A stretch of DNA of 58,342 nt from a phage. Under the pieces are notes generated by a model. That model worked only from the letters and a program-made list of their open reading frames with translations. It had not been told where the DNA came from and ran no database searches. Position numbers and translations under genes: made by a program. Shown piece after piece: positions 1,561-21,953 of the stretch (positions are counted from its first letter, which is position 1; each line of letters starts with the position of its first letter). The stretch lies in the sequence record PZ445426.1; one strand, 5' to 3'.

Positions 1561-1571
1561 CTGGAGGGTAT

Positions 1572-3068: not shown

Positions 3069-3098
3069 TTGCAACTTGCAAGTTGATCGGTTTATATT
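3069..3098 (+). promoter_or_regulatory. candidate sigma70-like promoter (TTGCAA-18-TATATT) overlapping a perfect 14-bp palindrome CAACTTGCAAGTTG (3072..3085)
   Basis: hexamers and palindrome read directly; lies between portal stop and next gene. Confidence 0.3.
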
Positions 3099-3163
3099 AA
3101 CGAACACGGGGCTGGGACGGCTCAGCTCCAAAAACGTCACACGGGTGACAACGGAGATAAGAA

Positions 3164-4036
3164 ATGAAAAAGAGTTCTGTAGCTATCAGTATTGGTCTTG
3201 CTCTAATTAATCCACGCGCTCGCGGTGAAGGTGATGTGGAATTGCAATACGAGTATGCATCTGCGGAAGAAATCCCGGCAGAATTTGCAACTCTTTACGC
3301 AGAGCAGGGCGGTAAATACGTTCTTGCAAAAGTCAAAGGTGTAGCACCTGCTGATAGCGTTCGTCGTCTGGAAAGTGCGTTAGCAAAAGAGCGTAACGAT
3401 CATCGTCAGGTGAAACAACAAATTAGCGCACTGGGACGTCCAGTTGAAGAAGTCCTGGCGGATTTGGATCGTATCCCTGAGCTGGAAGCTGCTGCTAACG
3501 GTAAAGGTAATCCGGAAGACATTGAGAAGATGGTCAAAGCCCGTCTTGCTCCGCTTGAGCGCCAATTGCAAACTGTTATCACCGAGCGTGACACGGTTAA
3601 GCAGGAAATTGAAGGCTACCGCACTCGCGAAACTAAAGCGAAGATTAAAGATGCAGTTATTGCCGCTGCATCCGGTGCTAAGCTGCGTCCGTCTGCTATT
3701 GAAGATGCGGTGACTTATGCACAGTTGCAAATGACAGTCGACGAGAACGGCAATGTGGTTACGAAAGATGGGGCTGGTGTAACTCCTTACCTGACTCCGG
3801 CGGATTGGCTGAACGAAATCCTTCCGAAACGTCCGCACTGGGTTGAAGGTTCTGCTGGTGGCGGTGCATCTGGTCCTGGCGCTGGCGGTCATCACGGTGA
3901 AGACCCGTACAGTCACGACGGTTGGAACATCTCTAAGCAGATGAATCTCTGGAAAACTAATCAATCTTTAGCTAAACGCTTAGCTGAAAAGAATGGCGTA
4001 GACCCGCTGAAGCCTGTACGTCCTGCTAAGAAATAA
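3164..4036 (+). CDS. putative scaffolding protein
   Basis: 290 aa; charged, coiled-coil-like middle and Gly-rich C-terminus; between portal and capsid genes; GGAG RBS. Confidence 0.4.
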   Translation: MKKSSVAISIGLALINPRARGEGDVELQYEYASAEEIPAEFATLYAEQGGKYVLAKVKGVAPADSVRRLESALAKERNDHRQVKQQISALGRPVEEVLADLDRIPELEAAANGKGNPEDIEKMVKARLAPLERQLQTVITERDTVKQEIEGYRTRETKAKIKDAVIAAASGAKLRPSAIEDAVTYAQLQMTVDENGNVVTKDGAGVTPYLTPADWLNEILPKRPHWVEGSAGGGASGPGAGGHHGEDPYSHDGWNISKQMNLWKTNQSLAKRLAEKNGVDPLKPVRPAKK

Positions 4037-4037
4037 G

Positions 4038-4083
4038 TTGACATCCCGACGTCCCTGATGTTAAGTTTCAACACATCAGGGAC
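4038..4083 (+). promoter_or_regulatory. TTGACA hexamer (4038..4043) followed by perfect 11-bp inverted repeat GTCCCTGATGT/ACATCAGGGAC (4051..4083) upstream of capsid gene
   Basis: read directly; no U-tract after the stem so not a classic terminator. Confidence 0.3.
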
Positions 4084-4158
4084 ACGGGTTCCTAAACAGC
4101 CTTCCACGGGGAAAGGCTACCAACAGTAAACAAATCAATCCTTTTCCTGGAGACAAGT

Positions 4159-5220
4159 ATGTCTAAATCTAAAATTATTCTACCATTTGGTCGTGGTGAA
4201 ACTGACCTGACTCGTTTGAAGGATGTCATTGTCCCTGAGATCTTCACTGGTTATGTGCAGACGCAGACTGCTGAACTTTCTGCTCTGATTCAATCCGGTG
4301 CGGTTGTAATGGACGAGCGTTTATCTGCTAACCTTGCTGGTGCAGGTCTGACTTTTAACGAGCCGTTCTATAACGACCTGAAAGATGAAGACGAAGATAT
4401 CGCGGTTGATAAAGGCAATCCGTCCAAACCGTCAAACATCACTACCGGATCTGAAGTTCAGGTTCGTATGAGCCGTTCGAAATCCTGGGGTTCTGCGGAT
4501 CTGGTATCAGCTTTGATTGGTAACGACCCAATGACCGCTATCGGTAACCGCGTGTCTGCGTGGTGGGTTCGCCGTCTGCAAGCTGCATACATCGCAACCT
4601 GGAAAGGCGTATTTGCTAATGCGAAGAAATCCCATAAGGATGATCTGACGTTCGATATTTCCGGTTCTTCATTTGTAAACAACCAGACCAACTTTACCGC
4701 GTCTAACTTCATCAACGCAACTGCAACGATGGGTGATGCTGCTCGTGGTCTGACCATGATTATGGTTCACTCTACCGTTCGTAACCGTATGCGTCAGCTA
4801 AACCTGATCGACTTCATTCCGGATGCTCGCGGCGAAACTCAGTTTGAGTATTATCAGGGTCTGCGTATTATTGAAGACGACTCCATGCCGCACGAACCGT
4901 CTACTGGTGTGTTTGAAAGCTGGCTGTTCGGCCCGGGCGCGACTGCAATGGGTGCTGGATCACCGAAAGTTCCGACCGCTGTGGTGCGTGACGAAGCCGC
5001 TAACCAAGGCGCTGGTGAAGAAGTTCTTCACAACCGTGTTGAATGGATTCTGCATCCGGTTGGCCATGCTTGGGCTGCTACTCAAACTGCTAAAGGTGGT
5101 CCGTCTAACGCTGCAACTACTAACAACCTGGCCCATGAAGATTCCTGGCGTCGTGCGTTCCCTGAGCGCAAGCAGCTTAAAGTTGCGCGCCTGATCACTC
5201 GTGAGTATCAGGGTTCCTAA
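4159..5220 (+). CDS. major capsid protein
   Basis: 353-aa ORF with GGAGA RBS after the scaffold-like gene and before an intrinsic terminator; call by position. Confidence 0.55.
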   Translation: MSKSKIILPFGRGETDLTRLKDVIVPEIFTGYVQTQTAELSALIQSGAVVMDERLSANLAGAGLTFNEPFYNDLKDEDEDIAVDKGNPSKPSNITTGSEVQVRMSRSKSWGSADLVSALIGNDPMTAIGNRVSAWWVRRLQAAYIATWKGVFANAKKSHKDDLTFDISGSSFVNNQTNFTASNFINATATMGDAARGLTMIMVHSTVRNRMRQLNLIDFIPDARGETQFEYYQGLRIIEDDSMPHEPSTGVFESWLFGPGATAMGAGSPKVPTAVVRDEAANQGAGEEVLHNRVEWILHPVGHAWAATQTAKGGPSNAATTNNLAHEDSWRRAFPERKQLKVARLITREYQGS

Positions 5221-5251
5221 GGCTTCACTCAACGCCGCGCTGTAGTATTTT

Positions 5252-5277
5252 GGGGACATTTATGTCCCCTCTTTTTT
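5252..5277 (+). terminator. rho-independent terminator (GGGGACA-ttta-TGTCCCC + T-tract)
   Basis: stem-loop and T-run read directly downstream of the capsid gene. Confidence 0.6.
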
Positions 5278-5289
5278 AGGAGAACAACC

Positions 5290-5613
5290 ATGCGTTATCA
5301 ACGTTATGAACGACATGACTTGATGGAAAAATCGTTGCAGGTGGAGCCAATTTCGATTACTCTCGATCCTGCTACGATTGACACCACAACTTCAGAAGTA
5401 AAAACGGTTACTGTTAAAATAAACTTTGTCCCAGGCGGAACTACAAACAAAGCGTATAGTGCGTCAGTTGACGGTTCCTCTGCTACAATTAAAGACAACG
5501 GGGACGGTACAATTACTGTGACCACAACCGCAAGCAGTGGTACTTCAAACTTGACAGTAACGTCCAAGGCAAAGGATAGTGTTACTGGTACATGTGTTAT
5601 TAATGTGACCTAA
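5290..5613 (+). CDS. Ig-like (Big_2-like) domain protein, possible capsid decoration protein
   Basis: 107 aa; Thr/Ser/Val-rich beta-strand pattern (GDGTITVTTTASSGTSNLTVTSKA) typical of bacterial Ig-like domains; AGGAGA RBS. Confidence 0.45.
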   Translation: MRYQRYERHDLMEKSLQVEPISITLDPATIDTTTSEVKTVTVKINFVPGGTTNKAYSASVDGSSATIKDNGDGTITVTTTASSGTSNLTVTSKAKDSVTGTCVINVT

Positions 5614-5630
5614 AAAATAAGGATTAAACA

Positions 5631-6284
5631 ATGAAGACATTAATTGAAGCATTGTTAGAACTTGATCCGGAGAACCCGAATCATTGGACCAGCGATGGCT
5701 TACCTAAAGTTGATGCTCTGCGTTTCGCTACCGCTAACCCGTCTTTAACCCGCGACGATATTACAACTGCTGCTCCGCTGTTTACCCGCGATAACCGCGT
5801 GCTGGAAGAGCCCGAGCCAGTGGAACCTGTTAAATCTGCTGATCCAGTTTTACATGAATCTGTCAAACAGGAGAAAGCTCATGAAGAACAAAAGAAAGTC
5901 GCGGTTGCAACGATGCAAATCGAAGTTAAGATTAGCGAAGCATTGCGTGCTCTTCTGGAGCCGGAAAAAATCGGTGACACTTCCAGCCTAAGCGATGAAG
6001 AGCTGAAAGCGAAGCGTGAAAAGCTTAGCAATGTGGTTAAAGAGATTGCCCACACTAAGCACGCGCTGGAGCTTGCTATTGCCGACGTTCAAGCGGATCT
6101 GGATAAGATTATCGTTGAGCAGGAAAGTCGTCGTCCTAAGTCCGGTCTTACTGCAACTCAAATGTATCTTGAAGCGCAGAAAAAACGTAAACCTGAAGAC
6201 ATGCTTTCTGACCATCGCTTCCAGAACCCTATTGACGATCCGGTCGCCCGTATGGTTGCACGTAATATGATGCGTCGAGGTTAA
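5631..6284 (+). CDS. hypothetical protein (head module)
   Basis: 217-aa ORF with AAGGA RBS; acidic/coiled-coil-like; no recognisable motif. Confidence 0.45.
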   Translation: MKTLIEALLELDPENPNHWTSDGLPKVDALRFATANPSLTRDDITTAAPLFTRDNRVLEEPEPVEPVKSADPVLHESVKQEKAHEEQKKVAVATMQIEVKISEALRALLEPEKIGDTSSLSDEELKAKREKLSNVVKEIAHTKHALELAIADVQADLDKIIVEQESRRPKSGLTATQMYLEAQKKRKPEDMLSDHRFQNPIDDPVARMVARNMMRRG

Positions 6285-6338
6285 CCATGGAAATGAGCCA
6301 TAGACAATATGTGTTGTGGCTCCTCCGACGTAATAGAA

Positions 6339-6368
6339 AACGGCGTCAAGAAGACGCCGTTTCTGTTC
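6339..6368 (+). terminator. possible weak intrinsic terminator (AACGGCGTC-aagaa-GACGCCGTT + tctgtt)
   Basis: 9-bp stem read directly; poor U-tract. Confidence 0.3.
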
Positions 6369-6422
6369 CTGAAGAAGAGCTCCCGCCGCTTATCCCTACA
6401 ACCATCGCAATGAGGAAGAAAG

Positions 6423-6929
6423 ATGGAGATTTCACTGATAGTTGAAGATGGTACTGGTGTACCGGATGCTAACAGTTATGTGACCATTGAACAAGTCCGC
6501 ATGTATGCCGCAATGCGAGGTATTGTACTTCCAAGTGAAGATGAAGATCTAAAGACAAAGATCTTCGACGCTATGGATTTTGTGGAAGGATACGGTCAAC
6601 GGTTTAAGGGTTACAAAATGGACCCACAGCAACCGCTAAATTGGCCACGCTACGGGGTGTTTGTGGATGGGTTCGAGCTACCCCAAAGCCCTTTACCAAA
6701 GGCGCTTATAAACGCGGTTTGCCAGCTTACAGCGGACTCAGCTACTGGCGGTCCCCTTAATGGGAAAACTACTGCATATGCAGTCAAAAGAACTAAAGTA
6801 GAAGGTCTTGAGATTGAATATGCAACTGGTAGCACAGCACAGTCAGGTCCAGCAAAAACATATGATAAAGCTATGACGTTTTTATCACCTTTGCTGGGTT
6901 ATCAAATGGGTAACAGATTAATACGGTGA
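6423..6929 (+). CDS. putative head-tail connector/adaptor protein
   Basis: 168-aa ORF; first of four short, translationally coupled genes between head and tail genes. Confidence 0.4.
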   Translation: MEISLIVEDGTGVPDANSYVTIEQVRMYAAMRGIVLPSEDEDLKTKIFDAMDFVEGYGQRFKGYKMDPQQPLNWPRYGVFVDGFELPQSPLPKALINAVCQLTADSATGGPLNGKTTAYAVKRTKVEGLEIEYATGSTAQSGPAKTYDKAMTFLSPLLGYQMGNRLIR

Positions 6930-6932
6930 TTT

Positions 6933-7313
6933 ATGAGCTTTCCTTATGAGCAGTTAGTTGAAGCTGCAAAGCAAATGATCAACGACGCTGGCGTGAACTG
7001 TACCCTTGTGGTTATGGAAAAAGGAGAAGGTCAAGATGAGTGGGACGATCCTAGTGTTGAAAAACGCTACCCATTTATCGGAGCTTTTCTTTCTCCGAAG
7101 GAAAAAATGATCGGTGGGAGCCTTGTTGCTACTGGCGAATTGAAAGTCTTAACCTATCCAATGACTCCGCCGCTGACACGTGATAAAGCAATGACTGCAC
7201 GTATTGAGCGCATGTCTCCCGACGGTGAGTTGGAAGTATGGACAATTAACGAGTTCGTTGATACAAGACCTGCTAATGTTTCTGTTCTTTATACTTTCAA
7301 GGTGACGCGATAA
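6933..7313 (+). CDS. putative head-tail joining protein
   Basis: 126-aa ORF; tightly packed with flanking genes. Confidence 0.4.
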   Translation: MSFPYEQLVEAAKQMINDAGVNCTLVVMEKGEGQDEWDDPSVEKRYPFIGAFLSPKEKMIGGSLVATGELKVLTYPMTPPLTRDKAMTARIERMSPDGELEVWTINEFVDTRPANVSVLYTFKVTR

Positions 7314-7720
7314 TGGGATTCGGGGCGGATATACGGCGTGCAAGTCAAAAGGTGCTTGTCCAGACTGGGGAGCAAGCCAAAAAGGTTGTTGTCAAGTTCA
7401 CGGAGAATGTAATTCAGGATACTCCTGTTAAAACCGGACGTACAAAAGGCGGTTGGCGTTCATCCATTGGTGCACCATATGCGACGGAAACTATCCGCCT
7501 CGATCCTACTGGGGAATTAGCTAAAGCGGAAGCTAGGGTTATCGTAAGACAGTTGCCATATGATAAAGACTGGACTTTCTACTTTAGCAACTTGACCCCG
7601 TATGCTCCGAAACTTGAATATCTTGGTTGGTCGCAGCAAGCGCCAAATGGCATGGTGCGTATTAACGTAGCGAAGCTTCCGATGTTGATACGCCAAGCTA
7701 TTGTAGAAGGAAAACTATAA
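7313..7720 (+). CDS. putative head-tail joining / tail completion protein
   Basis: 135-aa ORF; start overlaps upstream stop. Confidence 0.4.
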   Translation: MGFGADIRRASQKVLVQTGEQAKKVVVKFTENVIQDTPVKTGRTKGGWRSSIGAPYATETIRLDPTGELAKAEARVIVRQLPYDKDWTFYFSNLTPYAPKLEYLGWSQQAPNGMVRINVAKLPMLIRQAIVEGKL

Positions 7721-8169
7721 TGCTGGGATACGATTTTATCAATGACGCATTTAATAAGATGCTACGCGAAGCCGTTGGACCGGATATCGGTATAGCTTGG
7801 AAGAACAAGAAGTTTACACCCAAAGCGAATCAGATGTGGTTAAAGGCAATCAATGCACCTGCATCCACATACGCGGCAACGTTAGGTGACAACGGTCTGA
7901 ATGAAATTCCGGGATTCTATCAAGTCACAGTGTACAGTCCGTTAAACACTGGAACGTCTAAACAGAATCAAATCTTGGATTCCATTCGGAAAAAGTTTAA
8001 ACTGGGCTTGCGTATCCCGTGCCCGGATGACCACACGTTACGGATTGTCAGTTTAGACTTTTCGCAAGGTGGGCAAACTTCGCTGAACGATTTTACCAAA
8101 GGCGGGGTTGAAGATAACTGGGACGTTAACTTTATCACAATCTATTGGTCGGCTCGTGAGCCGAGGTAA
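7720..8169 (+). CDS. putative tail terminator / tail completion protein
   Basis: 149-aa ORF; start overlaps upstream stop; precedes major tail gene. Confidence 0.4.
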   Translation: MLGYDFINDAFNKMLREAVGPDIGIAWKNKKFTPKANQMWLKAINAPASTYAATLGDNGLNEIPGFYQVTVYSPLNTGTSKQNQILDSIRKKFKLGLRIPCPDDHTLRIVSLDFSQGGQTSLNDFTKGGVEDNWDVNFITIYWSAREPR

Positions 8170-8183
8170 GAGAGGATCTAAAT

Positions 8184-9107
8184 ATGGCTACAGGTTCACG
8201 TTATTCGTGTTATTACGTCAAAGAAGATGTGAGCAACATAACTCCAGCGAACGCAAAGTTTACCCCGTTTCGTGTAACGAGTTCCGGTCTGGATATTAAC
8301 ATCGCGACGCTGGAGTCTGAAGAGCTGCGCGATGACGCAGAAACCGCAGACTTCCGTCTTGGCGCTCGAAGCGTTGAAGGTACGGTAACAGGCGAAATGT
8401 CCTTCGGTACATTTGACGACCTCATTGCGGCAGCACTGCGCGGTGAATGGCAAGACAACGTCCTTAAAGGCGGTATTGTCCGTCAGTCATTTACTTTTGT
8501 AGACTATAACGCAGATCTGCCGTCAGGTAAATATACAATCTATCGCGGTTGTGAAGTTAATAGCATGACTTTCTCATTGTCTGCTGAAAACATGACCACA
8601 GTAGAGTTCGGTATTGTTGGTCGCTCGATGGAAATTGCGGAATCGCTCCCATCTGGTGCAACTATCAACCCGCGTACAACTACTTCTCCGATGGATGGCT
8701 TCTCTGGCTGCTTGCTGGAAGACGACAAAGAGATCAGCGTTATTACGGAAATCGGTCTTACCGTTGAAAACGATATCGCTCCGCGCTTCGTTGTTGGCTC
8801 AAAGTTCTCCATTGAACCGTCTGCTGGTCGCCGTGCTGTAACTGGTACAGCTAACGTTTACTTCCTGGATAACAAGCTGCGTATGAAGTATCTGGATGAA
8901 GTGGAAACTTCAATCAAGTTTGATCTGATTGACCCAAGCAATCCGGAACAAAAATACACTGTGGAAATTCCTCGCGTGAAATTCACTGAAGCTCCGCGTC
9001 CTATTGACGGTGAAGGGGATATCATGCTTAATATGGGCTACCGCGGATTGCTGGACCCAACAACCGCAAGTTCCATCAAAATTACCCGCGTTTTAGCGGC
9101 AGCATAA
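8184..9107 (+). CDS. putative major tail protein
   Basis: 307-aa ORF with strong RBS directly upstream of the chaperone/frameshift/tape-measure genes. Confidence 0.5.
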   Translation: MATGSRYSCYYVKEDVSNITPANAKFTPFRVTSSGLDINIATLESEELRDDAETADFRLGARSVEGTVTGEMSFGTFDDLIAAALRGEWQDNVLKGGIVRQSFTFVDYNADLPSGKYTIYRGCEVNSMTFSLSAENMTTVEFGIVGRSMEIAESLPSGATINPRTTTSPMDGFSGCLLEDDKEISVITEIGLTVENDIAPRFVVGSKFSIEPSAGRRAVTGTANVYFLDNKLRMKYLDEVETSIKFDLIDPSNPEQKYTVEIPRVKFTEAPRPIDGEGDIMLNMGYRGLLDPTTASSIKITRVLAAA

Positions 9108-9116
9108 GGATAAGAA

Positions 9117-9524
9117 ATGACCGACACCAAAAAAGGCAAAGTTGCAGTAGCTAAAAGCTTCCGTGATTTTAAAACTGTGAGCCGGGCAAACGACCCGGCA
9201 AACACTAAGCCCATGAATGTGGTTATTCCTGGTGTAGGCGACACTGGCGAAAAACTCTACATTCGTAGCCGTTATTGCACTGAGTACCGTGAAGCTGAAC
9301 TGAAAGCACAACGTCAATTGTTGGCTCTTATGCAGGGTAAAGACGGGGAAGTAACGGATGCTATGAAGGAAGACATCCTTACCCGTTCACTGTGTAACCT
9401 TGTAGCAGGTTGGACCTTTGATGAGCCGCCGACCGTTGACAACGTGTTTGAGTTCTTAACGGAGAACCCAACTGTTCGAGAAGACCTTAACGTATTTGCC
9501 GCCAAAGATAGTAATTTTTTCTAA
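9117..9524 (+). CDS. tail assembly chaperone (lambda G-like)
   Basis: 135-aa ORF before the tape measure gene; ends in slippery heptamer T_TTT_TTC just before its stop. Confidence 0.55.
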   Translation: MTDTKKGKVAVAKSFRDFKTVSRANDPANTKPMNVVIPGVGDTGEKLYIRSRYCTEYREAELKAQRQLLALMQGKDGEVTDAMKEDILTRSLCNLVAGWTFDEPPTVDNVFEFLTENPTVREDLNVFAAKDSNFF

Positions 9525-9922
9525 AAGCGCGCAGACAGTTAATTGATAAGAAGATTCTCCAATGGGAACTAAATAGTAAAGTCCCCGGCGGGGGATCTTC
9601 TTTATTATCGCAACTGCAAAAGGTTGAGGAACAGTCTGGTAAGACGCCGCCTAAGCTTAAAGAATATCGGGAAAAGGAAATACCAATCTGCTTTGAATAC
9701 TTGTCTACTTTATTTGATGACATTTACACCGGAGGAGATTTTAGTTATACAGAATTGCACAGCTATCAGGTAACGATGGGCCTACATCTTCAACCGTACG
9801 AATGCGAAATACTGCGGCAGCTATGGCTTGAAAAGCGCGTGTCTGAAGCTGAACAAAATGCTAAACTCATGGAAAGTCAAATGCAAAATCAGAATAAAGG
9901 TAGAAGGAAAAGGAGAAGGTAA
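9117..9922 (+). CDS. tail assembly chaperone frameshift product (lambda GT-like), programmed -1 shift at 9515..9521
   Basis: canonical X_XXY_YYZ heptamer TTTTTTC at 9515..9521; the -1 frame is open from 9521 to 9922 and ends where the tape measure gene starts. Confidence 0.5.
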
Positions 9923-12900
9923 TGGCCGAAACTGCTTCGCTAGTAATCAGGGTTGACGCGAAAGGGATTAGCACAGCGGACTCCATGCTGCGTAACCTTG
10001 CGCGTACAGGTGACACAGCGGAGCGTTCCGCTCAACGTGTCACATCCAGCTATAAGACATTGTCTAACACATCTAACGAACTTGCAACTGTCACAAGTCG
10101 TTTAGATGCTGCAATTGTAGGAATGATTAGCGTCGACACCATTAACCGTGTTATTTCTCTATCGGACTCCTGGACTATCCTCACCAACAAGCTTGAACTG
10201 GCTCGTACTGGTAATGAAACCGTTGCGGATGCGCAGCAACGCGTGTTTGATATTGCCCAGCGGTCACGTACAAGCTTGGAAGCAACTGCAACTCTATATT
10301 CCCGTCTCCAGCGTGCAATGAAGAATACTGGTATGACGGGTATGGAGCTTGGACGTATCACTGAAACAATTAACAAAGCGATGATTGTTTCCGGTGCAAC
10401 GTCACATGAAGCAAGTGCCGCCCTTATTCAGTTTTCGCAAGCAATGGCATCCGGTGTTTTGCGCGGGGATGAATTCCGTTCTGTTGCAGAACAAGGCCCG
10501 CGCTTAACTCAAATCATGTCCGATGCGTTAGGTGTTACCATTGGACAATTGCGTGAAATGGCGTACAGCGGCAAGTTAACCGCTGATGTGGTTATCAAAT
10601 CGTTGTCTGGTGCTGCGGATACAATTGATAAAGAATTCAGCCGCACTATGCCAACGTTCAACCAGCAATGGACAATTGCGACAAACAACCTAACTAAGTT
10701 TATGGGCGAATCCCAAAAGACTCAAGGTGCGGTTGCTGCATTGGGACAGACGTTTGTTGCATTATCCAAAAACTTAGGAACGGTTGTAACGGTTGGTTCA
10801 GCTTTAGCCACAGTGATTACTGCCCGTATTATTACGGCAATGCTTGCTAAGACTAAAGCGTCTATAGCTGCTGCAAAAGCATCACAGATGGAAGCTGCAC
10901 AAACAGCGGCAACTACTGCGGTGATGCAAAGCTCTATTGGCGTTACCGTGCAGAAAGCGGCTGCGGATCGTGCTGCTTCTCTTGCAGCGTTACAGGTTGC
11001 TCGCGGGTCATTAGCGGTTGCTAAAGGTACAGCAGCGGAAGCAGGTGCACGTCTTGCGCTTATTAACGCCACCCGTGCGCATTCTGCGGCAATTATGGCG
11101 GACGTACAAGCGCGGCAAGCGCTCAATGCTGCGCTTAATGCAACTGTACCAGCCGCAAGCCGGGCAGCTACAGCAATGAGCGTGCTGCGCGGTGCTATGG
11201 GGTTAATTGGCGGTCCTGTTGGTGTAGCAATGCTGGCAGCGGGTGCAATTTACTCCTATAAAGCATCGCTGGAAGCTGGTCGTGCGGAAAACAATCAGTT
11301 TGCGGATAGTGTTGATTCTGTACGCGAGAAACTGATGCAGATGACAGAAGCTCAGTTGGCAGCTAACGCAGTTAAAGCTCGCGCAATCCTCCCCGAACTT
11401 GAAGAGCAAATGAAGCGGGAGCAAACTGCTCTTAAATCTGCAACGGAAACGCAGAAGTTCTATGAAGCACAATTAAAACGTCGTGCTGCGTCCGGTCGTG
11501 ATACAGCTAGTGCCGAGAAAAATTTACAGATTGCTACGGATAACGTCAAGCTTGCTGCTGAACGTGCTGAAGAAGCTCAACGCCGTTACAACAATGTCTT
11601 AGAAATGACAAGCCCTGCTATCGAGAAGATAATTCCGTTAGCTCGTCAGCTTGCAGCGGATATGAAAGCAGTGCTTAATATCAAATCCGGTCCGCTTATT
11701 GACGAGAAAGTGCTTGATCGTTTTAAAGGTCAGTTAGGTGACGTTAACCGTGAGATTGATGTTAACACGGTTAAGGGTGCTGGCAATGCTCGCCAAGCTG
11801 CAATCCTTAGTGGACTGTATCAGACGCTGGGCAAGGATGCGGATACATACGGAAGTCTTATTCGCAAAGTAGCTATGGGCCAGGATGTTAGCTCTGAAGC
11901 AACAAGCGAGTCCGCAAAAGAACTTGTTAAATATGCTCAAGAGCTAGCGGAAGCTTACGGCAAGAATTATGATCTCGAGGAAGCGGAGAGGAACCGAACT
12001 AAAGCGACAAAAGACGGTATTAAAGCAGAACAACAGAACGCCAAAGTTATTGACGATTTACGCAACAAGCTTAACGAAGTAACTACAGGAGTTAAAGAAA
12101 ACGCTAAAGCTAAAGCGCAAGCTGTGGCACTTAATAAGCTCAATGCGTCTGCAACGGCTGCGGAAAAAGCGGAAGTTGTTAGTCTTGCTGCTGCAATTTA
12201 CGATGCAGAAGAAGCTCAAAAGAAACTGGACGAGCGTAAAAAGAATCGTAAGTTTGCTCAGGGTCTGTTAGATGAAGGTATGACAGACTATGAAAAAATC
12301 GCGTACGAGCAAAATACTAAGATTGCTGAGCTTACTGCTAAACAACGAGCGGATGACCTAGCTTACTATCAACTTTATGAGGATGCTAAAACTCAAGTCC
12401 TGAAGAAAGCAAGCATGGAAAGGGAAAATCTGGATAAAGTTCTTATGAACCGAATGATATCCTTTTCTCAGGAATCGTTGGGTATTATACTGTCAGGGCT
12501 GGAAGAAGGTGTTAGTAAACAGAACTTTATTTATAAGGCAATGTTTGCCGCACAGAAAGCAATGCAAATCCCGTCAATCCTTGCTAACACGGAAACGGCA
12601 GCATCCGCAGCGCTTGCATGGGGTACACAGCAAGGCGGTGCTACAATGGGCGCGGCTATGGCTGGAATTGTTAAAGCTATGGGTTATGCGTCCGCTGCTA
12701 CTGTGGGTGGCTTAGCAATCGCTGGCATGGCACACGATGGTATTGATAATGTTCCACGCGAAGGTACATGGTTATTGGATAAAGGTGAACGCGTACTTAA
12801 TGCTCCGTCTAATGACAAGTTAAACCGCTTCCTGGATAGCCAAGCTTCACAACAAGGTGGCGTGAATATGTCTGGTGGTGTTAGCATTGTCCAGTATATC

Positions 12901-13038
12901 ACGGTGCAAGGGAATGGCGATGCTGCACTCACGCAAGCCATGCAGCAAGCGGCTCGTGATGGTGCGGAGCAGGGATATAATAAAGTTCTTACAGACTTTG
13001 CATCCCGAGGAACAATTCGTAGAACTGCAATGGGGTAA
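9922..13038 (+). CDS. tail tape measure protein
   Basis: 1038-aa Ala/Gln-rich, largely helical protein after the chaperone pair; largest tail gene. Confidence 0.8.
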   Translation: MAETASLVIRVDAKGISTADSMLRNLARTGDTAERSAQRVTSSYKTLSNTSNELATVTSRLDAAIVGMISVDTINRVISLSDSWTILTNKLELARTGNETVADAQQRVFDIAQRSRTSLEATATLYSRLQRAMKNTGMTGMELGRITETINKAMIVSGATSHEASAALIQFSQAMASGVLRGDEFRSVAEQGPRLTQIMSDALGVTIGQLREMAYSGKLTADVVIKSLSGAADTIDKEFSRTMPTFNQQWTIATNNLTKFMGESQKTQGAVAALGQTFVALSKNLGTVVTVGSALATVITARIITAMLAKTKASIAAAKASQMEAAQTAATTAVMQSSIGVTVQKAAADRAASLAALQVARGSLAVAKGTAAEAGARLALINATRAHSAAIMADVQARQALNAALNATVPAASRAATAMSVLRGAMGLIGGPVGVAMLAAGAIYSYKASLEAGRAENNQFADSVDSVREKLMQMTEAQLAANAVKARAILPELEEQMKREQTALKSATETQKFYEAQLKRRAASGRDTASAEKNLQIATDNVKLAAERAEEAQRRYNNVLEMTSPAIEKIIPLARQLAADMKAVLNIKSGPLIDEKVLDRFKGQLGDVNREIDVNTVKGAGNARQAAILSGLYQTLGKDADTYGSLIRKVAMGQDVSSEATSESAKELVKYAQELAEAYGKNYDLEEAERNRTKATKDGIKAEQQNAKVIDDLRNKLNEVTTGVKENAKAKAQAVALNKLNASATAAEKAEVVSLAAAIYDAEEAQKKLDERKKNRKFAQGLLDEGMTDYEKIAYEQNTKIAELTAKQRADDLAYYQLYEDAKTQVLKKASMERENLDKVLMNRMISFSQESLGIILSGLEEGVSKQNFIYKAMFAAQKAMQIPSILANTETAASAALAWGTQQGGATMGAAMAGIVKAMGYASAATVGGLAIAGMAHDGIDNVPREGTWLLDKGERVLNAPSNDKLNRFLDSQASQQGGVNMSGGVSIVQYITVQGNGDAALTQAMQQAARDGAEQGYNKVLTDFASRGTIRRTAMG

Positions 13039-13041
13039 TAT

Positions 13042-13626
13042 ATGCTCACTTGGCCTGAAGAGCTTAGACCATCGGAAATGGAATGGTATCTAGTTTCAAA
13101 CGCTGTAGAATTTACAAGCCCCTTCAATGGGGCTTCCCAAACTGTGTCATATCCCGGATCTCGTTGGGAAGCGACACTGACATTTAGCAACTTAAATGAC
13201 TGGCAATCCAGAAAGCTTGAATCAACGTTAGCTAAACTTGATGGCAAAGCTGGTCGCATTATGCTTCAGGATTTTGGTCGCTGGGGTAGGCCTCCAATGG
13301 GATTACCTGTGGTTAATGGCGCAAATAACACTGGGACAACTTTATCAACTAAGGGTTGGACTCCTGACCGTAAGGTATTATGGGAAGGGGACTATATCGC
13401 AGTAAACAATGAATTAAAATTGATAACAGAAGATGCTTGGAGTGATTCTTCTGGTAACGTGATTTTAAATATTGCCCCAATGTTAAGAAGCATCCCTCCA
13501 AACGGTGCAAAGATTGAGACTCAGAAACCACAAGGATCTTTCCGTTTAGCCGAAAACACAAATGGAGTTAAACGTCAACCTGCATTTAATAACTCCTTTA
13601 CTTTAAAATTCTCGGAGGCGTTCTAA
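13042..13626 (+). CDS. minor tail protein (distal tail, by position)
   Basis: 194-aa ORF directly after tape measure. Confidence 0.45.
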   Translation: MLTWPEELRPSEMEWYLVSNAVEFTSPFNGASQTVSYPGSRWEATLTFSNLNDWQSRKLESTLAKLDGKAGRIMLQDFGRWGRPPMGLPVVNGANNTGTTLSTKGWTPDRKVLWEGDYIAVNNELKLITEDAWSDSSGNVILNIAPMLRSIPPNGAKIETQKPQGSFRLAENTNGVKRQPAFNNSFTLKFSEAF

Positions 13627-14210
13627 TGTTATTCAGTCCGTTTAGCGATAGCCTTCTTAGCGCAATGGAGCAACCAAACGTTGCGCTAGTGTTGGCAGCG
13701 GAAATAGACTTCCCTTCCGGTATCACTCGCGTGCATACTGGAACAGGAACTGTTATTATCAATGGTCAGACTTTTCTTGGTGTAGGTACTCTAGGGGATG
13801 TTGGATCGGTTACAGAAGAAAACAGCACAAGCTCAAGCACTATGTCCATGGCACTTAGCGGTCTGGATATGAGTCTTGTAGGGGAGACGTTAAACGAAGA
13901 AGTTATTGGCCGCAATGTTATTTGCTATCTTGCGGTTATGAACGATCAAGGCGTTGTCACTGGTGCAAACGTATTATTTGAAGGGTTTATTACAGATACA
14001 GCTTTACAAGCAGGGCAACAAAATGCTTTGAGCTATGTTATTGCCAATGTCTTTGAGCGTTGGTCACAAGGTTTACCGGATCGCTATACAGATGAAAGTC
14101 AACAACGTTTACATCCAGGTGATCGGTTCTTTAGATATGTTGCACAAATGGCTGAACGTTCAATCTTTTGGGGGAGTAAAAAAGATGCGCCAGGGTTCAC
14201 GTATGAGTAA
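13626..14210 (+). CDS. minor tail protein
   Basis: 194-aa ORF; GGAGG RBS; start overlaps upstream stop. Confidence 0.45.
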   Translation: MLFSPFSDSLLSAMEQPNVALVLAAEIDFPSGITRVHTGTGTVIINGQTFLGVGTLGDVGSVTEENSTSSSTMSMALSGLDMSLVGETLNEEVIGRNVICYLAVMNDQGVVTGANVLFEGFITDTALQAGQQNALSYVIANVFERWSQGLPDRYTDESQQRLHPGDRFFRYVAQMAERSIFWGSKKDAPGFTYE

Positions 14211-14619
14211 AATGCCAGGATGGCAAACACGTTTATTAACCACAGTAAAGGAGTTGGCATCGACTCCTTTTTCTTGGGGCGAAAACGATTGCTGTACGTT
14301 TGCCGCTAAATGTGTTGATGCACAATACAACACAAATATTTATAATCAGATAGCAGGTAAATATAGCACAGAGCTTGGAAGCAAGAGATTCTCAATTGAA
14401 AAAGTCGGGACAGCTTATCTTCCAACCTTGCTTGACGCTTACCTGAGTGAGCGTGTTGATAAGAACTTTGCACAAAGAGGAGATGTGGTTACATTTGAGG
14501 GAGCATTGGGCTTAACTGCTGGCATATTATGGACGGGATATGTATGGGCTATGGGTCCGAACGGTGTGGAAACTTTCCCGCTTAATAAGACCAAAATCAC
14601 GGATATTTGGAGGGTCTAA
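14185..14619 (+). CDS. tail assembly protein, possible NlpC/P60-like cysteine peptidase (lambda K-like)
   Basis: internal ATG at 14185 with GGGGAG RBS preferred over track start 14035; Cys-containing ENDCCTFAAKC segment; position before J-like gene. Confidence 0.35.
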   Translation: MRQGSRMSKMPGWQTRLLTTVKELASTPFSWGENDCCTFAAKCVDAQYNTNIYNQIAGKYSTELGSKRFSIEKVGTAYLPTLLDAYLSERVDKNFAQRGDVVTFEGALGLTAGILWTGYVWAMGPNGVETFPLNKTKITDIWRV

Positions 14620-17258
14620 TGCCACCAGCAATAATTGGAGCAGCAATAGCTTTAGGTGCTTCCGCTGCCGCTGCGGCGGGGTGGATTGCTACGGGTGTAG
14701 CTTTAGCTATTGGTATGGCTGCAACTGCGGCGGGTGCTCTTTTAACTAAGACACCTAATATGAACTTTAATGCTTATAAAGGTCAACAAGAGCGTAAACA
14801 GGTTTTACGAGCAGCCGCAGCGTCTCGAACAGTAGTGTATGGCACAACGGTCGCTTCCGGAGTTATGACGTTTGCTGAGGAGCAGCCTGGAGATCAGGAC
14901 GAAGACGAACTCCTGCATATGGCTCTTGTTGTAGCTTCACATCCATTGGAGGGAATTGGTGATATTTGGCTTGGGGATGACCTTGTACAGACTTTCGAAC
15001 AGTATGTTACTTGGGAATTCCATAACGACCGTCAGACTGTAGATCCATTTATGTTAAGCAATTGCCCTTCCTGGAAAGAGGATATGATCGGGAAAGGGAT
15101 TGCATGGCTTCGTATTAGCTTTAAATTTAATGCGGAAAAATTCCCGTCTGGTTTGCCAAATATTAAGCTTCTTAAAAGAGGTCGCCGTGTATATGATCCT
15201 CGTTCTGGTTATACCATATTTAGCGATAATGCAGCGTTAGTGATACTTGATTACTTCCGCACGTATTTAAAGCGCAAAGATGAAGATATTAACTGGGACC
15301 AATTCAAAGAAGCGGCTAACATCTGTGATGAATACGTCAATAACGCTGATGGTTCTACAGAGCGCCGTTATAAAATCAACGGTGAATTTGAAGTAGATGA
15401 AGCCCCATCCAAAATTCTGGATGCTATGTTGCAAGCTTGTGGTGGTGAGCTAACGTATGTAGCGGGTAAACACGGTCTTCTGGTTGGCGCATATTACGGC
15501 CCAGCAACAATGACGCTGGACGAAAGTTGTATTGCTGGGGATATTAAAATTGTTCCAGAGACTTCTTATAAGGAGCGCACCAACACCATCACAGGGACAT
15601 TTATTGATCCAAAGCAAAACTATGTTGAAGCGGACTTTCCTCCAGTTGTGGTTAAGGAATGGGTGGAAAAGGACGGCGGTGAAATAACGCAAGACATGGA
15701 TTTCCGATTTGTAACAAGTGAATATCAAGCCCAACGTTTGTCTAATATTATTCTACGTCGTAAACGTGTTGGCCGTACAATTGAAATTCCTTGTAACATG
15801 AAGGGTTATAAATTTCGTCCAGGAATGTATGTAAAAGTCACCATTACGCAGATTGGCATGAAGAATGTTGAAATGCGCGTTACTAAATGGTCTTTTAACC
15901 CTAAAGGTGGTGTTAACCTTACACTACGTCAAGATTTCCTGGAAATGTGGGACGATGCAATTGGTAAGCCTATGGACAGACCAGATCTTGTAGACTTGCC
16001 AAGTGGTGGTGTTGCCCAACCTCAAAATCTTCAATACCAGATATTGCAGATTAGTGATGTGGTACAGGGGGTATTATCCTGGACCAACATGGGGCAAGTT
16101 GCATATAACCGCGTAGCTGTGCGACAGGGAGGTGTCACTATTTGGACAGCACAAGTCCCCGGCCAAAGCGTTCGTGTCACTGGGTTGCTGCGTGGGTCGT
16201 ATACTGCGCACGTTCAAGCTGTATCGCACAGTGGCGCAATATCACCGGAAGCTTATCTGGAGTTTAATATTCAAGCCCCACCGCCGCCTTCATCTGTCGA
16301 AATACAGAACGGTTATTTTTCTTTAACTCTTATACCAAAGATTGCAGAGCTCACTAGTGTTAGCACACAATTTGATTTCTGGACGTCTGGTGAAACAAAA
16401 CTGCCGTCTGCTAATACAGATGTTGTTGAGCGCGATGCCACCCGTGAAGGTATGGGAACTATATGGCAGAAAAATAACTTACTCAATGACCACACTTATT
16501 ACTGGTATGTAAGAACTATCAATGCCTTTGGGTCGTCCTCGTTTGTGGAAGTTGAAGCTCGTGTATGGGCAGAAACTGCACAGATCATAGAAATTATGGA
16601 TAAAGAGTTTCAAGAAACTGAAACTTTCAAAAACCTCATGGAGACTGTGCAAAAGGTTGATGACGGTGTAACGGAATTGTCCAAAGTAGTTGAAGGACAA
16701 GCTACAAAAATTGAATCGGTTCAGAGTAGTGTGGGTGATGTTGTTGTTACCGTGCAAGAGCAATCGCAAGCACTAGCAGATCTTAATGGTAAACTTTCTG
16801 CTCAATGGGGACAAAAGGTTCAAATAGACAATAATGGTAACAAATATGTTGCAGGTATGCAGTTAGGTATTGAAGGTAGCGGAGGACAATTCCAGTCTTA
16901 CTTTATGGTGAGCGCGGATAACTTTGCTATTTATAATCCTGTAGCAGGAGCAGCACAGCTTGCATTCGCTATTAAAAACGGTCAAAGTTTCTTGCGAGAA
17001 GCGTTTATTGAAAACGGATCGATTACTAACGCTAAGATTGGTAATGTTATCCAGTCCAATAACTGGAATGGTAACGATCAAGGTTGGGCAATTACAAAAG
17101 ACGGTTATTGCGTATTTAATAACGTGACCGTCAGAGGGACCGTTGTTGCTAACGCTGGTCAATTTGGTTTCAATGGAAATGGAGGTATTACAATTGATAG
17201 TAACGGTATTCGTGTTCCGCTATCAGGTGGTGGTGTTGTCATAGTGGGACGATGGTAA
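14619..17258 (+). CDS. tail tip / host specificity protein (lambda J-like)
   Basis: 879 aa from ATG 14619 (GGAGGG RBS; track start 14607 is TTG); hydrophobic Ala/Gly-rich N-terminus, FN3-like segment, large size. Confidence 0.55.
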   Translation: MPPAIIGAAIALGASAAAAAGWIATGVALAIGMAATAAGALLTKTPNMNFNAYKGQQERKQVLRAAAASRTVVYGTTVASGVMTFAEEQPGDQDEDELLHMALVVASHPLEGIGDIWLGDDLVQTFEQYVTWEFHNDRQTVDPFMLSNCPSWKEDMIGKGIAWLRISFKFNAEKFPSGLPNIKLLKRGRRVYDPRSGYTIFSDNAALVILDYFRTYLKRKDEDINWDQFKEAANICDEYVNNADGSTERRYKINGEFEVDEAPSKILDAMLQACGGELTYVAGKHGLLVGAYYGPATMTLDESCIAGDIKIVPETSYKERTNTITGTFIDPKQNYVEADFPPVVVKEWVEKDGGEITQDMDFRFVTSEYQAQRLSNIILRRKRVGRTIEIPCNMKGYKFRPGMYVKVTITQIGMKNVEMRVTKWSFNPKGGVNLTLRQDFLEMWDDAIGKPMDRPDLVDLPSGGVAQPQNLQYQILQISDVVQGVLSWTNMGQVAYNRVAVRQGGVTIWTAQVPGQSVRVTGLLRGSYTAHVQAVSHSGAISPEAYLEFNIQAPPPPSSVEIQNGYFSLTLIPKIAELTSVSTQFDFWTSGETKLPSANTDVVERDATREGMGTIWQKNNLLNDHTYYWYVRTINAFGSSSFVEVEARVWAETAQIIEIMDKEFQETETFKNLMETVQKVDDGVTELSKVVEGQATKIESVQSSVGDVVVTVQEQSQALADLNGKLSAQWGQKVQIDNNGNKYVAGMQLGIEGSGGQFQSYFMVSADNFAIYNPVAGAAQLAFAIKNGQSFLREAFIENGSITNAKIGNVIQSNNWNGNDQGWAITKDGYCVFNNVTVRGTVVANAGQFGFNGNGGITIDSNGIRVPLSGGGVVIVGRW

Positions 17259-17268
17259 TGAAATATTT

Positions 17269-17290
17269 AAACGGGGCATGTGCCCCGTTT
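17269..17290. terminator. bidirectional terminator, perfect 22-bp palindrome AAACGGGGCATGTGCCCCGTTT
   Basis: read directly between convergent stops at 17258 (+) and 17292 (-). Confidence 0.6.
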
Positions 17291-17291
17291 A

Positions 17292-18293: not shown

Positions 18294-18381
18294 TATTGTT
18301 TTATATTCTAATTTAATTTACCATATTTGTATGCCATAGTGCATCCATTAATTAATCAACTCTGCGAAACAAGAGGTAAAA

Positions 18382-20508: not shown

Positions 20509-20780
20509 AAGACTTAACGATGAAATTTAAGGATAAGAAAGCATTTGAAGATTTTCTTGTGGTTATTGATTGGGAAGGCAATGAAACTTTGCAAAATCAA
20601 ATAATGCTTGATGTCATAGGTTACACCTATGCCGAAGTTGAAAGTTTATCGGATGAACCAACACATATTCAAAATAAAGGATATTATGTAAACGTAAGGA
20701 TTATTGATGACTCATTTGATTTTACACAGTACAGTAACCACCGTGTCATTCTTGAGCAACCTTTAAGGGAGTGGGCATAA
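20505..20780 (+). CDS. hypothetical protein (possible tail fibre assembly factor)
   Basis: 91-aa ORF whose ATG overlaps the tail fibre stop (ATGA). Confidence 0.4.
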   Translation: MKDLTMKFKDKKAFEDFLVVIDWEGNETLQNQIMLDVIGYTYAEVESLSDEPTHIQNKGYYVNVRIIDDSFDFTQYSNHRVILEQPLREWA

Positions 20781-20782
20781 TT

Positions 20783-21937: not shown

Positions 21938-21953
21938 CCACATCTAACTTCCT

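What the first reader, a model, noticed from the sequence alone, without database searches (positions are those of the whole stretch)
9515..9922. Programmed -1 ribosomal frameshift in the tail assembly chaperone gene
Seen: the chaperone ORF ends ...AAT TTT TTC TAA with the canonical slippery heptamer T_TTT_TTC at 9515..9521; the -1 frame is open from there for about 134 codons and ends exactly where the tape measure gene starts. Established: the lambda G/GT frameshift is conserved in tailed phages. Inference: a G-like and a GT-like product are made in a fixed ratio.
Basis: partly seen in the sequence, partly recalled or inferred. Interest (0 to 1): 0.5.

Follow-up and report, generated by a model that had tools for sequence, protein, structure and literature searches.

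The report
Tail chaperone G/GT ribosomal frameshift site
This is the usual programmed -1 ribosomal frameshift that lets a tailed phage make a short and a long tail-assembly chaperone from one gene; it is almost certainly real, but it is ordinary and already annotated at the same site in a 96%-identical phage (Escherichia phage Seurat).

Summary
ORF 9117..9524 (135 aa) ends AAT TTT TTC TAA. The heptamer T_TTT_TTC lies at 9515..9521 in the X_XXY_YYZ phase. The -1 frame is closed by TAA at 9512..9514, opens at 9515 and runs to TAA 9920..9922, which overlaps the ATG (9922) of the tape measure gene. The two frames overlap by only 10 nt, so the heptamer is the only possible shift site.

The window is a Seuratvirus. 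GenBank records of phages Seurat and SA80RD already carry a joined "tape measure chaperone" CDS with ribosomal slippage at this position.

- All 38 related loci examined, down to about 22% protein identity and including Pseudomonas, Xanthomonas and Acinetobacter phages, keep one in-phase slippery site in the overlap. It is T_TTT_TTC, or T_TTT_TTA_AAG/C in one clade.
- The start-codon-free stretch 9521..9700 evolves as protein in the -1 frame.
- PHROG 569 covers both halves colinearly, and Pfam Phage_TAC_18 matches the extension.

No experiment on this phage group was found, and the G:GT ratio is inferred from lambda. One modest extra: RNA structure is enriched just 3' of the slip site across the family (hairpin 9544..9607 here), but at an atypically long 22-nt spacer and without a shared pairing register. 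Verdict: real, already known, low interest.

The parts
8184..9107 (+). Major tail tube protein gene (307 aa). It is the upstream neighbour and the presumed binding partner of the T domain.
   Evidence: Pfam PF18906 Phage_tube_2 at E=1.7e-40 and PHROG 290 at E=3e-80. Relatives annotate it as tail tube or tail subunit.
9117..9524 (+). G-like tail assembly (tape measure) chaperone ORF in the zero frame: 135 aa, with stop TAA at 9522..9524.
   Evidence: ORF and translation are. It matches PHROG 569 positions 11-126 (E=1.5e-25) and PHROG 313 'tail assembly chaperone' (E=5e-11). The Pfam Phage_TAC_4 match is below threshold here (14.8 vs 21.1 bits), but 7 of 12 family members match it, best E=7.6e-8. 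Seurat annotates the equivalent CDS as 'tape measure chaperone'.
9512..9514 (+). TAA in the -1 frame immediately 5' of the heptamer. It sets the upstream limit of the 0/-1 overlap.
   Evidence: the -1 frame is open only from 9515.
9515..9521 (+). Slippery heptamer T_TTT_TTC (X_XXY_YYZ phase): Phe-Phe codons TTT 9516-18 and TTC 9519-21.
   Evidence: The sequence is. It is the only in-phase heptamer in the 10-nt overlap. It is conserved in phase in all 38 related loci, as T_TTT_TTC or T_TTT_TTA_AAG/C. U_UU.U_UU.C is among the efficient E. coli -1 motifs and is used by IS elements (PMC4066793). The Seurat record places its slippage at 10236, which corresponds to window 9518.
9521..9922 (+). T-like extension read in the -1 frame after re-reading C9521: 133 aa (LKARRQLIDKK...KGRRKRRR), stop TAA at 9920..9922. 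The fused GT product is join(9117..9521, 9521..9922), 268 aa.
   Evidence: The translation is. It matches Pfam PF23812 Phage_TAC_18 at 37.7 bits against a cut-off of 27 and PHROG 569 positions 130-256 at E=7.4e-47. The alignment across the junction is gapless in 12 divergent phages, with F134 invariant. Third-position substitution bias holds in the start-less part 9521..9700.
9544..9607 (+). Predicted RNA hairpin 22 nt 3' of the heptamer. The arms are 9544..9560 and 9590..9607, with an inner stem 9563..9566/9584..9587. It is a candidate frameshift stimulator of unproven function.
   Evidence: The MFE is -26.1 kcal/mol with z=-3.2 against dinucleotide shuffles. A hairpin sits at the same place with different sequence and register in yong3, 9g, K9PH25C2, Vid5, K4PH164, L032 and L036. 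Against synonymous recoding, z is negative in 14 of 14 clade representatives, with mean -2.1 just 3' of the slip site and -1.2 or weaker at other offsets. There are 2 compensatory pairs in the 9g/K9PH25C2 clade. Against: RNAalifold finds no common consensus, z=-2.5 is not an outlier within this genome, and there is no Rfam family.
9910..9915 (+). Shine-Dalgarno sequence AAGGAG of the tape measure gene, embedded in the 3' end of the T extension. It shows the tape measure gene is initiated independently.
   Evidence: The sequence is. Seurat annotates a ribosome binding site at the equivalent position, record 10629..10633.
9922..13038 (+). Tape measure protein gene (1038 aa). Its ATG overlaps the TAA of the T extension by one base.
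   Evidence: Pfam TMP_3 at E=1.6e-59 and PHROG 339 at E=5.5e-178.

Best explanation
Ribosomes translating the chaperone gene from ATG 9117 reach the heptamer with tRNA-Phe on UUU (9516-18) in the P site and tRNA-Phe on UUC (9519-21) in the A site. Most continue in frame, meet UAA at 9522-24 and release the 135-aa G-like chaperone.

A minority slip back one base. Both tRNAs re-pair on UUU UUU at 9515-20, decoding resumes at CUA (9521-23), and translation runs 133 more codons in the -1 frame to UAA at 9920-22. The result is a 268-aa GT-like fusion (...DSNFF-LKARRQ...). A P-site-only slip of tRNA-Phe from UUC to UUU while UAA waits in the A site would give the same protein and cannot be told apart from sequence.

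By analogy with lambda, many G copies plus a few GT copies coat the tape measure protein (9922..13038). The T domain recruits the tube protein (8184..9107), and neither chaperone ends up in the virion.

Shown here: the anatomy, the conservation of the site, and that the -1 frame is protein-coding without a start of its own. Inferred: that the shift is ribosomal, its efficiency, and the roles of G and GT. The hairpin at 9544..9607 may raise the shift efficiency, but this is the weakest step.
For: 1. **Anatomy.** The 0/-1 overlap is 10 nt and consists of the heptamer plus the G stop.
2. **Coding signal without a start.** The -1 frame has 60 codons without ATG, GTG or TTG. Even so, substitutions against Seurat, SeppeHuegi and Skure fall 2/1/24 on codon positions 1/2/3 in 9521..9700.
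3. **Slip site conserved.** All 38 loci from GenBank phages and IMG/VR have one in-phase slippery site in the overlap. They span Seuratvirus, Nonagvirus, Vidquintavirus, Craquatrovirus, Bradleyvirinae and unclassified Salmonella, Providencia and Acinetobacter phages, at 22-56% protein identity. The Phe-Phe codon choice is always NNT TTT TTC or TTA.
4. **Junction conserved.** Fused proteins align without a gap across the junction.
5. **Family matches.** PHROG 569 covers both halves colinearly, Pfam Phage_TAC_18 matches the extension above threshold, and Phage_TAC_4 matches the G part in 7 of 12 relatives.
6. **Gene order.** The order is tube, G, T, tape measure.
7. **Motif efficiency.** U_UU.U_UU.C and U_UU.A_AA.G are experimentally efficient -1 motifs in E. 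coli (PMC4066793).
8. **Prior annotation.** Independent annotators placed a ribosomal slippage join at this site in Seurat and SA80RD.
9. **Established background.** G/GT frameshifting is widely conserved in long-tailed dsDNA phages (review PMC5009743).
Against: - No protein-level or reporter evidence exists for this phage group in the searchable literature, so the GenBank joins are predictions.
- There is no sequence similarity to lambda GT (hhalign probability 0.75%).
- The fold of G could not be checked: the AF2 single-sequence model has pLDDT 48.5, and the large protein search returned no homologues to build an alignment.
- No Shine-Dalgarno-like stimulator lies upstream (sequence).
- The predicted hairpin starts 22 nt downstream rather than the usual 5-8 nt (PMC4066793). 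A canonical stimulator is therefore absent, and efficiency may be low.
Confidence: 0.9

Rival explanations
1. Transcriptional slippage. RNA polymerase occasionally inserts one extra U while copying the T6 run (9515..9520). Standard translation of that minority mRNA then yields the same-length GT fusion.
For: A run of at least 6 T is present in all 38 loci, and some have T7. One inserted U would place downstream codons in the genomic -1 frame, and the product would differ from the ribosomal one by at most one Phe. UUUUUUU runs are avoided in E. coli genes, possibly because of polymerase slippage (PMC4066793).
Against: The bacterial transcriptional slippage described in the review involves runs of 9 A or T (PMC5009743). 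Here the run is 6. In one clade the site is T_TTT_TTA_AAG/C, which adds a second classical ribosomal heptamer (T_TTA_AAG) without lengthening the T run. The run is always held in the X_XXY_YYZ phase, with a C or A closing it rather than being extended. This argument is weakened because the conserved Phe-Phe residues also fix the phase.
Confidence: 0.05
2. There are two separate genes. The downstream reading frame is translated on its own from an internal start (TTG 9701 or ATG 9776), as many GenBank records of relatives annotate it, and no fusion is made.
For: SeppeHuegi and CSP1C annotate a 48-aa ORF, Skure annotates a TTG-started ORF, and 9g, yong3, Vid5, PSTCR4 and others annotate separate 'hypothetical proteins'.
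Against: The 60 codons upstream of the first possible start are conserved as protein. R139, I143 and W150 are invariant in Queuovirinae, and substitutions there show third-position bias. They also match PHROG 569 from position 130 onward. No Shine-Dalgarno sequence precedes 9701 or 9776. The annotated starts differ from record to record, whereas the heptamer is invariant.
Confidence: 0.03
3. Chance or artefact. The heptamer and the open frame are coincidental, or the frame break is a sequencing error or pseudogene lesion in a single long chaperone gene.
For: None beyond the general point that open -1 frames after stops are common between overlapping genes.
Against: The same frame break at the same Phe-Phe site occurs in 38 independently sequenced loci across many genera. 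The zero-frame stop follows within 2-33 codons in all of them.
Confidence: 0.01

Closest known systems
Escherichia phage Seurat CPT_Seurat13/14 'tape measure chaperone' (KM236243 / NC_027378), and SA80RD_14/15 (OL960575)
   Same: The region is 96.3% identical in nucleotides, with the same G ORF length (135 aa) and the same heptamer. The records carry a joined CDS of 268 aa with 'ribosomal slippage (10236)', which maps to window 9518.
   Different: Nothing of substance. The window differs by a few mostly synonymous substitutions: 8 nt and 1 aa in G, 22 nt and 1 aa in T. One of them, C to T at 9556, keeps a pair in the predicted hairpin as G-U.
Phage lambda G/GT frameshift (Levin, Hendrix & Casjens 1993; Xu, Hendrix & Duda 2004, 2013, 2014, as summarised in PMC5009743)
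   Same: The genes sit between the major tail gene and the tape measure gene. The short product is about 135-140 aa and the fusion about 270-280 aa. The -1 shift occurs on an X_XXY_YYZ heptamer near the end of the short ORF, and the tape measure gene starts at the end of the extension.
   Different: The heptamer is T_TTT_TTC (tRNA-Phe), not G_GGA_AAG (tRNA-Gly and tRNA-Lys). The zero-frame stop directly abuts the heptamer, whereas lambda has 5 sense codons between them. There is no detectable sequence homology (hhalign probability 0.75%). The Pfam families are Phage_TAC_18 and Phage_TAC_4; from my own knowledge these are not the families built around lambda G and T.
IS-element and dnaX -1 frameshift cassettes of E. 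coli (PMC4066793)
   Same: They use the same class of slippery heptamer. U_UU.U_UU.C is one of the heptamers found in IS elements and is efficient in reporter assays.
   Different: Those cassettes normally have an upstream Shine-Dalgarno-like element and/or a hairpin or pseudoknot starting 5-8 nt downstream. Here no Shine-Dalgarno-like element is seen, and the predicted hairpin begins 22 nt downstream.

Membership tests
G/GT-type tail assembly chaperone frameshift of long-tailed phages | The gene pair lies between the major tail (tube) gene and the tape measure gene. | tested here: met
   The tube gene is at 8184..9107 (Phage_tube_2, E=1.7e-40), G at 9117..9524, T at 9521..9922 and the tape measure gene at 9922..13038 (TMP_3, E=1.6e-59).
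G/GT-type tail assembly chaperone frameshift of long-tailed phages | The downstream ORF overlaps the end of the upstream ORF in another frame and has no translation start of its own. | tested here: met
   The -1 frame is open from 9515. The first ATG, GTG or TTG is at 9701, without a Shine-Dalgarno sequence. The overlap is 10 nt.
G/GT-type tail assembly chaperone frameshift of long-tailed phages | A slippery sequence in the correct phase lies inside the overlap. | tested here: met
   T_TTT_TTC at 9515..9521 is the only in-phase heptamer in the overlap. The motif is efficient in E. coli (PMC4066793).
G/GT-type tail assembly chaperone frameshift of long-tailed phages | The arrangement and slip site are conserved in divergent relatives. 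| tested here: met
   All 38 of 38 loci keep it, down to about 22% protein identity.
G/GT-type tail assembly chaperone frameshift of long-tailed phages | The extension is under selection as protein in the shifted frame, starting from the slip site. | tested here: met
   Substitutions fall 2/1/24 by codon position in 9521..9700. The alignment across the junction is gapless.
G/GT-type tail assembly chaperone frameshift of long-tailed phages | Two products, G and GT, are made at a set ratio. Both are needed for tail assembly and both are absent from virions. | not testable with these tools
   This needs protein analysis of infected cells and genetics. No such data were found for this phage group.
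Lambda gpG / gpT sequence families | Detectable sequence homology to lambda G-T. | tested here: not met
   hhalign of the 12-member GT profile against lambda GT gives probability 0.75% and E=0.074.
Pfam PF23812 Phage_TAC_18 | Score above the family's gathering threshold. | tested here: met
   The T extension scores 37.7 bits against a cut-off of 27, E=2.2e-9. All 12 of 12 family members match.
Pfam PF08748 Phage_TAC_4 | Score above the family's gathering threshold. | tested here: inconclusive
   The window's G scores 14.8 bits against a cut-off of 21.1. However, 7 of 12 aligned relatives match, best E=7.6e-8.
PHROG 569 (named 'tail length tape measure protein'; its profile is in fact a fused chaperone) | Both halves match one profile colinearly. 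| tested here: met
   G matches positions 11-126 (E=1.5e-25) and T matches positions 130-256 (E=7.4e-47) of 256.
Tail assembly chaperone fold | Structural similarity of the G domain to solved chaperone structures. | tested here: inconclusive
   The single-sequence AF2 model has pLDDT 48.5, too poor for a fold search. There is no sequence-level PDB relative.
Canonical -1 PRF cassette with a 3' stimulatory structure | A hairpin or pseudoknot starting about 5-8 nt after the heptamer, conserved with covariation. | tested here: inconclusive
   The hairpin at 9544..9607 starts 22 nt downstream. There is no common consensus by RNAalifold. Excess structure is position-specific across 14 clades, with 2 compensatory pairs in one clade. 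Within this genome it is not an outlier.
Programmed transcriptional slippage | A long homopolymeric run (about 9 A or T in the bacterial cases). | tested here: not met
   The run is T6 at 9515..9520. The review describes slippage on runs of 9 (PMC5009743).

The most novel reading that the evidence does not exclude
The predicted RNA hairpin 20-35 nt downstream of the slip site (9544..9607 here) may be a selected element of this chaperone family. It recurs at the same place with different sequence and pairing register in each Queuovirinae clade. It could stimulate frameshifting from an unusually long spacer, or protect or regulate the rarely translated T region (for example against Rho or RNases) so that the tape measure gene downstream is still expressed.
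Probability: 0.3. Interest if true: 0.4.

Novelty: already known. Interest (0 to 1): 0.15.

Why it matters
It matters mainly for annotation. The site is a textbook G/GT recoding event, and the same join is already in GenBank for phages Seurat and SA80RD.

The practical value is that most relatives carry a wrong or missing annotation. These include CAjan, slur01, 9g and the JenK1/JenP phages, the BASEL phages, Vid5, PSTCR4, PaMx11, DoCa5 and JeffCo. The T part is either called from arbitrary internal starts or omitted. The invariant T_TTT_TTC gives a simple rule to correct them across a wide family of siphophages.

The position-specific RNA structure downstream is a small, testable lead on how low-efficiency phage frameshifts are tuned.

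Tried and rejected
- **Large protein search.** The search for homologous proteins with the fused 268-aa protein returned no hit at E<=1e-3. No alignment could be built for structure prediction, and I did not spend a second search.
- **Structure prediction.** The G domain alone, without an alignment, gave pLDDT 48.5. That is too poor, so no fold search was run.
- **Solved structures.** A profile search of the GT alignment against PDB sequences gave only chance-level hits: a designed repeat protein and DNMT3.
- **First IMG/VR attempt.** The search for related loci with the 12-member alignment failed for lack of a conserved stretch. The 6-member Queuovirinae alignment worked.
- **Consensus RNA fold.** RNAalifold on the codon-register alignment of 24 sequences predicted no pairs, so the hairpin is not column-conserved. 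I rejected the claim of one homologous structure and kept only 'excess structure at this location'.
- **Hairpin significance.** The z-score against synonymous recoding looked strong in isolation. A genome-wide control showed 12 of 217 coding windows below -3, so it is not remarkable on its own. Only the cross-clade positional test carries weight.
- **Rfam.** No family matched at gathering score in the whole window, and only chance hits appeared at relaxed E-value around the site.
- **Terminator reading.** The inner hairpin at 9581..9596 is listed by the scan, but the number of such sites equals the shuffle expectation (7 vs 6.4), and the T tail is absent in relatives. I rejected this reading.
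- **Other TTTTTTC sites.** The other occurrences in the window (for example 33299 and 33314) lie antisense to a minus-strand gene. Its A6G runs are out of phase for frameshifting.
- **Lambda homology.** None was detected.

Full report
**Observation.**
- The ORF 9117..9524 encodes 135 aa and ends ...GAT AGT AAT TTT TTC TAA.
- T_TTT_TTC occupies 9515..9521 in the X_XXY_YYZ phase.
- The -1 frame carries TAA at 9512..9514, opens at 9515 and stays open to TAA 9920..9922.
- That stop shares its last base with the ATG at 9922 of a 1038-aa ORF, which is a tape measure protein (Pfam TMP_3, E=1.6e-59).
- The +1 frame closes after 7 codons.

The zero and -1 frames therefore overlap by only 10 nt, which is the heptamer plus the stop codon of G. 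A shift can only happen at this heptamer. The -1 frame has no ATG, GTG or TTG for its first 60 codons.

XXXYYYZ heptamers occur at 0.33% of positions on this strand and TTTTTTC four times. Off-frame open runs inside long ORFs average 9.4 codons, with none reaching 133.

**What the window is.**
The region is 96.3% identical to Escherichia phage Seurat and 93-96% identical to about 30 other Seuratvirus genomes (Queuovirinae). The Seurat record (KM236243 / NC_027378) already contains a two-part joined CDS, 'tape measure chaperone', over the equivalent of 9117..9922. Phage SA80RD carries the same annotation. The Seurat genome announcement lists a tape measure chaperone among the morphogenesis genes but reports no experiment (PMC4342423). 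I found no protein-level evidence for this group.

**Is the extension a real coding sequence joined to G?**
- **Family matches.** The conceptual fusion is 268 aa. PHROG 569, a 256-position profile, matches G on positions 11-126 (E=1.5e-25) and the extension on positions 130-256 (E=7.4e-47). Both halves therefore map colinearly onto one family of fused proteins. The extension passes the Pfam Phage_TAC_18 threshold (37.7 vs 27 bits). G gives a sub-threshold Phage_TAC_4 match (14.8 vs 21.1 bits), but 7 of 12 aligned relatives match that family, best E=7.6e-8.
- **Coding signal.** Against Seurat, SeppeHuegi and Skure, substitutions in the start-less stretch 9521..9700 fall 2, 1 and 24 times on codon positions 1, 2 and 3 of the -1 frame. 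This is the signature of a translated frame.

**Comparative test.**
A tblastn search with the fusion found 91 phage records. In all but one of the 60 listed rows the match splits into two pieces, that is, two frames. I fetched 16 GenBank loci and 22 IMG/VR loci. In all 38 there is exactly one in-phase slippery site inside the 0/-1 overlap. It is T_TTT_TTC, or in the Klebsiella K4PH164 clade the double site T_TTT_TTA_AAG/C.

The set spans Seuratvirus, Nonagvirus (9g), Vidquintavirus, Craquatrovirus, Bradleyvirinae (PaMx11, DoCa5) and unclassified Salmonella, Providencia and Acinetobacter phages. Protein identity to the window's fusion is 22-56%. The fused proteins align without a gap across the junction, with F134 invariant and F135 nearly so.

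The codon before the Phe-Phe pair always ends in T (AAT, CTT, GAT or CAT) and the pair is always TTT TTC or TTT TTA. Codon choice at the site is thus held at the nucleotide level while the flanks have diverged. The distance from the heptamer to the zero-frame stop varies from 0 to 31 codons, so the adjacent stop seen here is not essential to the family.

**Mechanism.**
The best-supported reading is a -1 ribosomal slip of the two tRNA-Phe from UUU UUC to UUU UUU, after which CUA (9521-23) is decoded. U_UU.U_UU.C belongs to the efficient class of heptamers in E. coli reporter assays and is used by IS elements. U_UU.A_AA.G, present in the variant clade, is efficient too (PMC4066793). Because UAA follows directly, a P-site-only slip during slow termination would yield the same protein.

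The functional roles are inferred from lambda (PMC5009743): G and GT bind the tape measure protein, the T domain recruits the tube protein, and the G:GT ratio is about 30:1. Direct homology to lambda GT is not detectable (hhalign probability 0.75%). The relation to lambda is one of organisation.

**Rivals.**
- **Transcriptional slippage on the T6 run.** It cannot be excluded from sequence, but the run is shorter than the 9-nt runs described for bacteria (PMC5009743). The variant clade adds a classical ribosomal heptamer rather than a longer run.
- **Independent initiation of the downstream frame.** Many records annotate it this way. This is contradicted by conservation and codon-position bias upstream of every candidate start.
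- **Chance or sequencing error.** Excluded by the 38 loci.

**Downstream RNA structure.**
- **In the window.** A hairpin is predicted at 9544..9607 (-26.1 kcal/mol, z=-3.2 against dinucleotide shuffles). It starts 22 nt after the heptamer.
- **In relatives.** Hairpins are predicted at the same place in yong3, 9g, K9PH25C2, Vid5, K4PH164, L032 and L036, with different sequences.
- **No shared register.** The pairing registers differ, and RNAalifold finds no common structure in the codon-register alignment.
- **Synonymous recoding.** Against synonymously recoded sequences the native sequence is more stable in all 15 representatives. The same statistic reaches below -3 in 12 of 217 other coding windows of this genome, so the window's value (-2.5) is unremarkable on its own.
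- **Positional test.** This test is more telling. Across 14 clade representatives the 102-nt window just 3' of the slip site has mean z=-2.1 and is negative in all 14. The next window averages -1.2, and all other offsets from -330 to +249 lie between -1.0 and +0.3.
- **Covariation.** In the 9g/K9PH25C2 clade two stem pairs show compensatory changes (C-G to U-A, A-U to G-C), 97.5% of cells are paired, and slid controls drop to 27-58%. This is effectively one evolutionary contrast.
- **Distant clades.** In DoCa5, JeffCo, Kokobel2 and PaMx11 the predicted hairpins begin about 5-9 nt after the heptamer, the canonical distance.

I conclude that excess structure downstream of the site is probably selected in this family. 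Its role here is unproven, given the long spacer. No Rfam family matches.

**Limits.**
- The fold of G could not be assessed. The large protein search returned nothing for the fusion, the fusion was not accepted for structure prediction, and the single-sequence model of G is poor (pLDDT 48.5).
- PDB sequence search gave only chance hits.
- Frameshift efficiency, the G:GT ratio and the assembly roles are inferences.

**Verdict.**
It is a standard G/GT-type recoding site that is already annotated at the same nucleotide in near-identical phages. The useful by-products are:
- a family-wide rule (an invariant T_TTT_TTC in the tube-to-tape-measure interval) that would correct many mis-annotated records;
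- a modest lead on a position-conserved downstream RNA structure.

Interest is low (0.15). Novelty: already known.

Noticed in passing
L002 2093-2239 (SeppeHuegi), L040 1693-1839 (CSP1C), L016 994-1206 (Skure, TTG start), L005 847-1185 (9g), L004 871-1215 (yong3), L007 844-1179 (Vid5), L009 850-1155 (PSTCR4); no T ORF at all in L011 (PSA28) and L015 (DoCa5): Most GenBank records of relatives annotate the T part as a separate short ORF from an arbitrary internal start, or omit it, instead of as a frameshift fusion. RefSeq and PHROG 569 name the chaperone CDSs 'tail length tape measure protein', which is a propagated misnomer.
   Followed up: partly
L008 766-775; L032 1557-1566; L033-L035 1566-1575: One Klebsiella-phage clade replaces T_TTT_TTC by two overlapping heptamers, T_TTT_TTA and T_TTA_AAG (or AAC). 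This changes the residue at the junction from Phe to Leu and offers a second, tRNA-Lys/Asn-based slip site.
   Followed up: partly
window 9581..9596 (+) with tail CTTCTTTATT: The inner GC-rich part of the hairpin plus a T-rich tail is listed as terminator-like by the consensus scan. Such sites are no more frequent than in shuffles (7 vs 6.4), and the tail is absent in 9g-type relatives.
   Followed up: yes
window 10552..10653, 7960..8061, 6993..7094, 9177..9278 and others: Several 102-nt coding windows in the structural genes are far more stable than their synonymously recoded versions, with z from -3.7 to -4.7. That is stronger than the hairpin next to the slip site. I did not examine whether these are conserved RNA structures.
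   Followed up: no
window 32666..33478 (-): A minus-strand gene encodes a 270-aa protein with an Ala/Lys/Glu-rich low-complexity N-terminal half (a run of 11 Ala, and EKKEAEKK repeats). Its A6G runs are in the AAA_AAA_G phase, so they are not frameshift heptamers.
   Followed up: partly
window 1..58342: No tRNA gene was found (ARAGORN), and no Rfam family reached its gathering score anywhere in the window.
   Followed up: yes
protein database search: The 5.8-billion-protein search returned no hit for the fused chaperone, although near-identical G proteins exist in GenBank and IMG/VR. This looks like a limitation of the word index or of the collection rather than biology.
   Followed up: no
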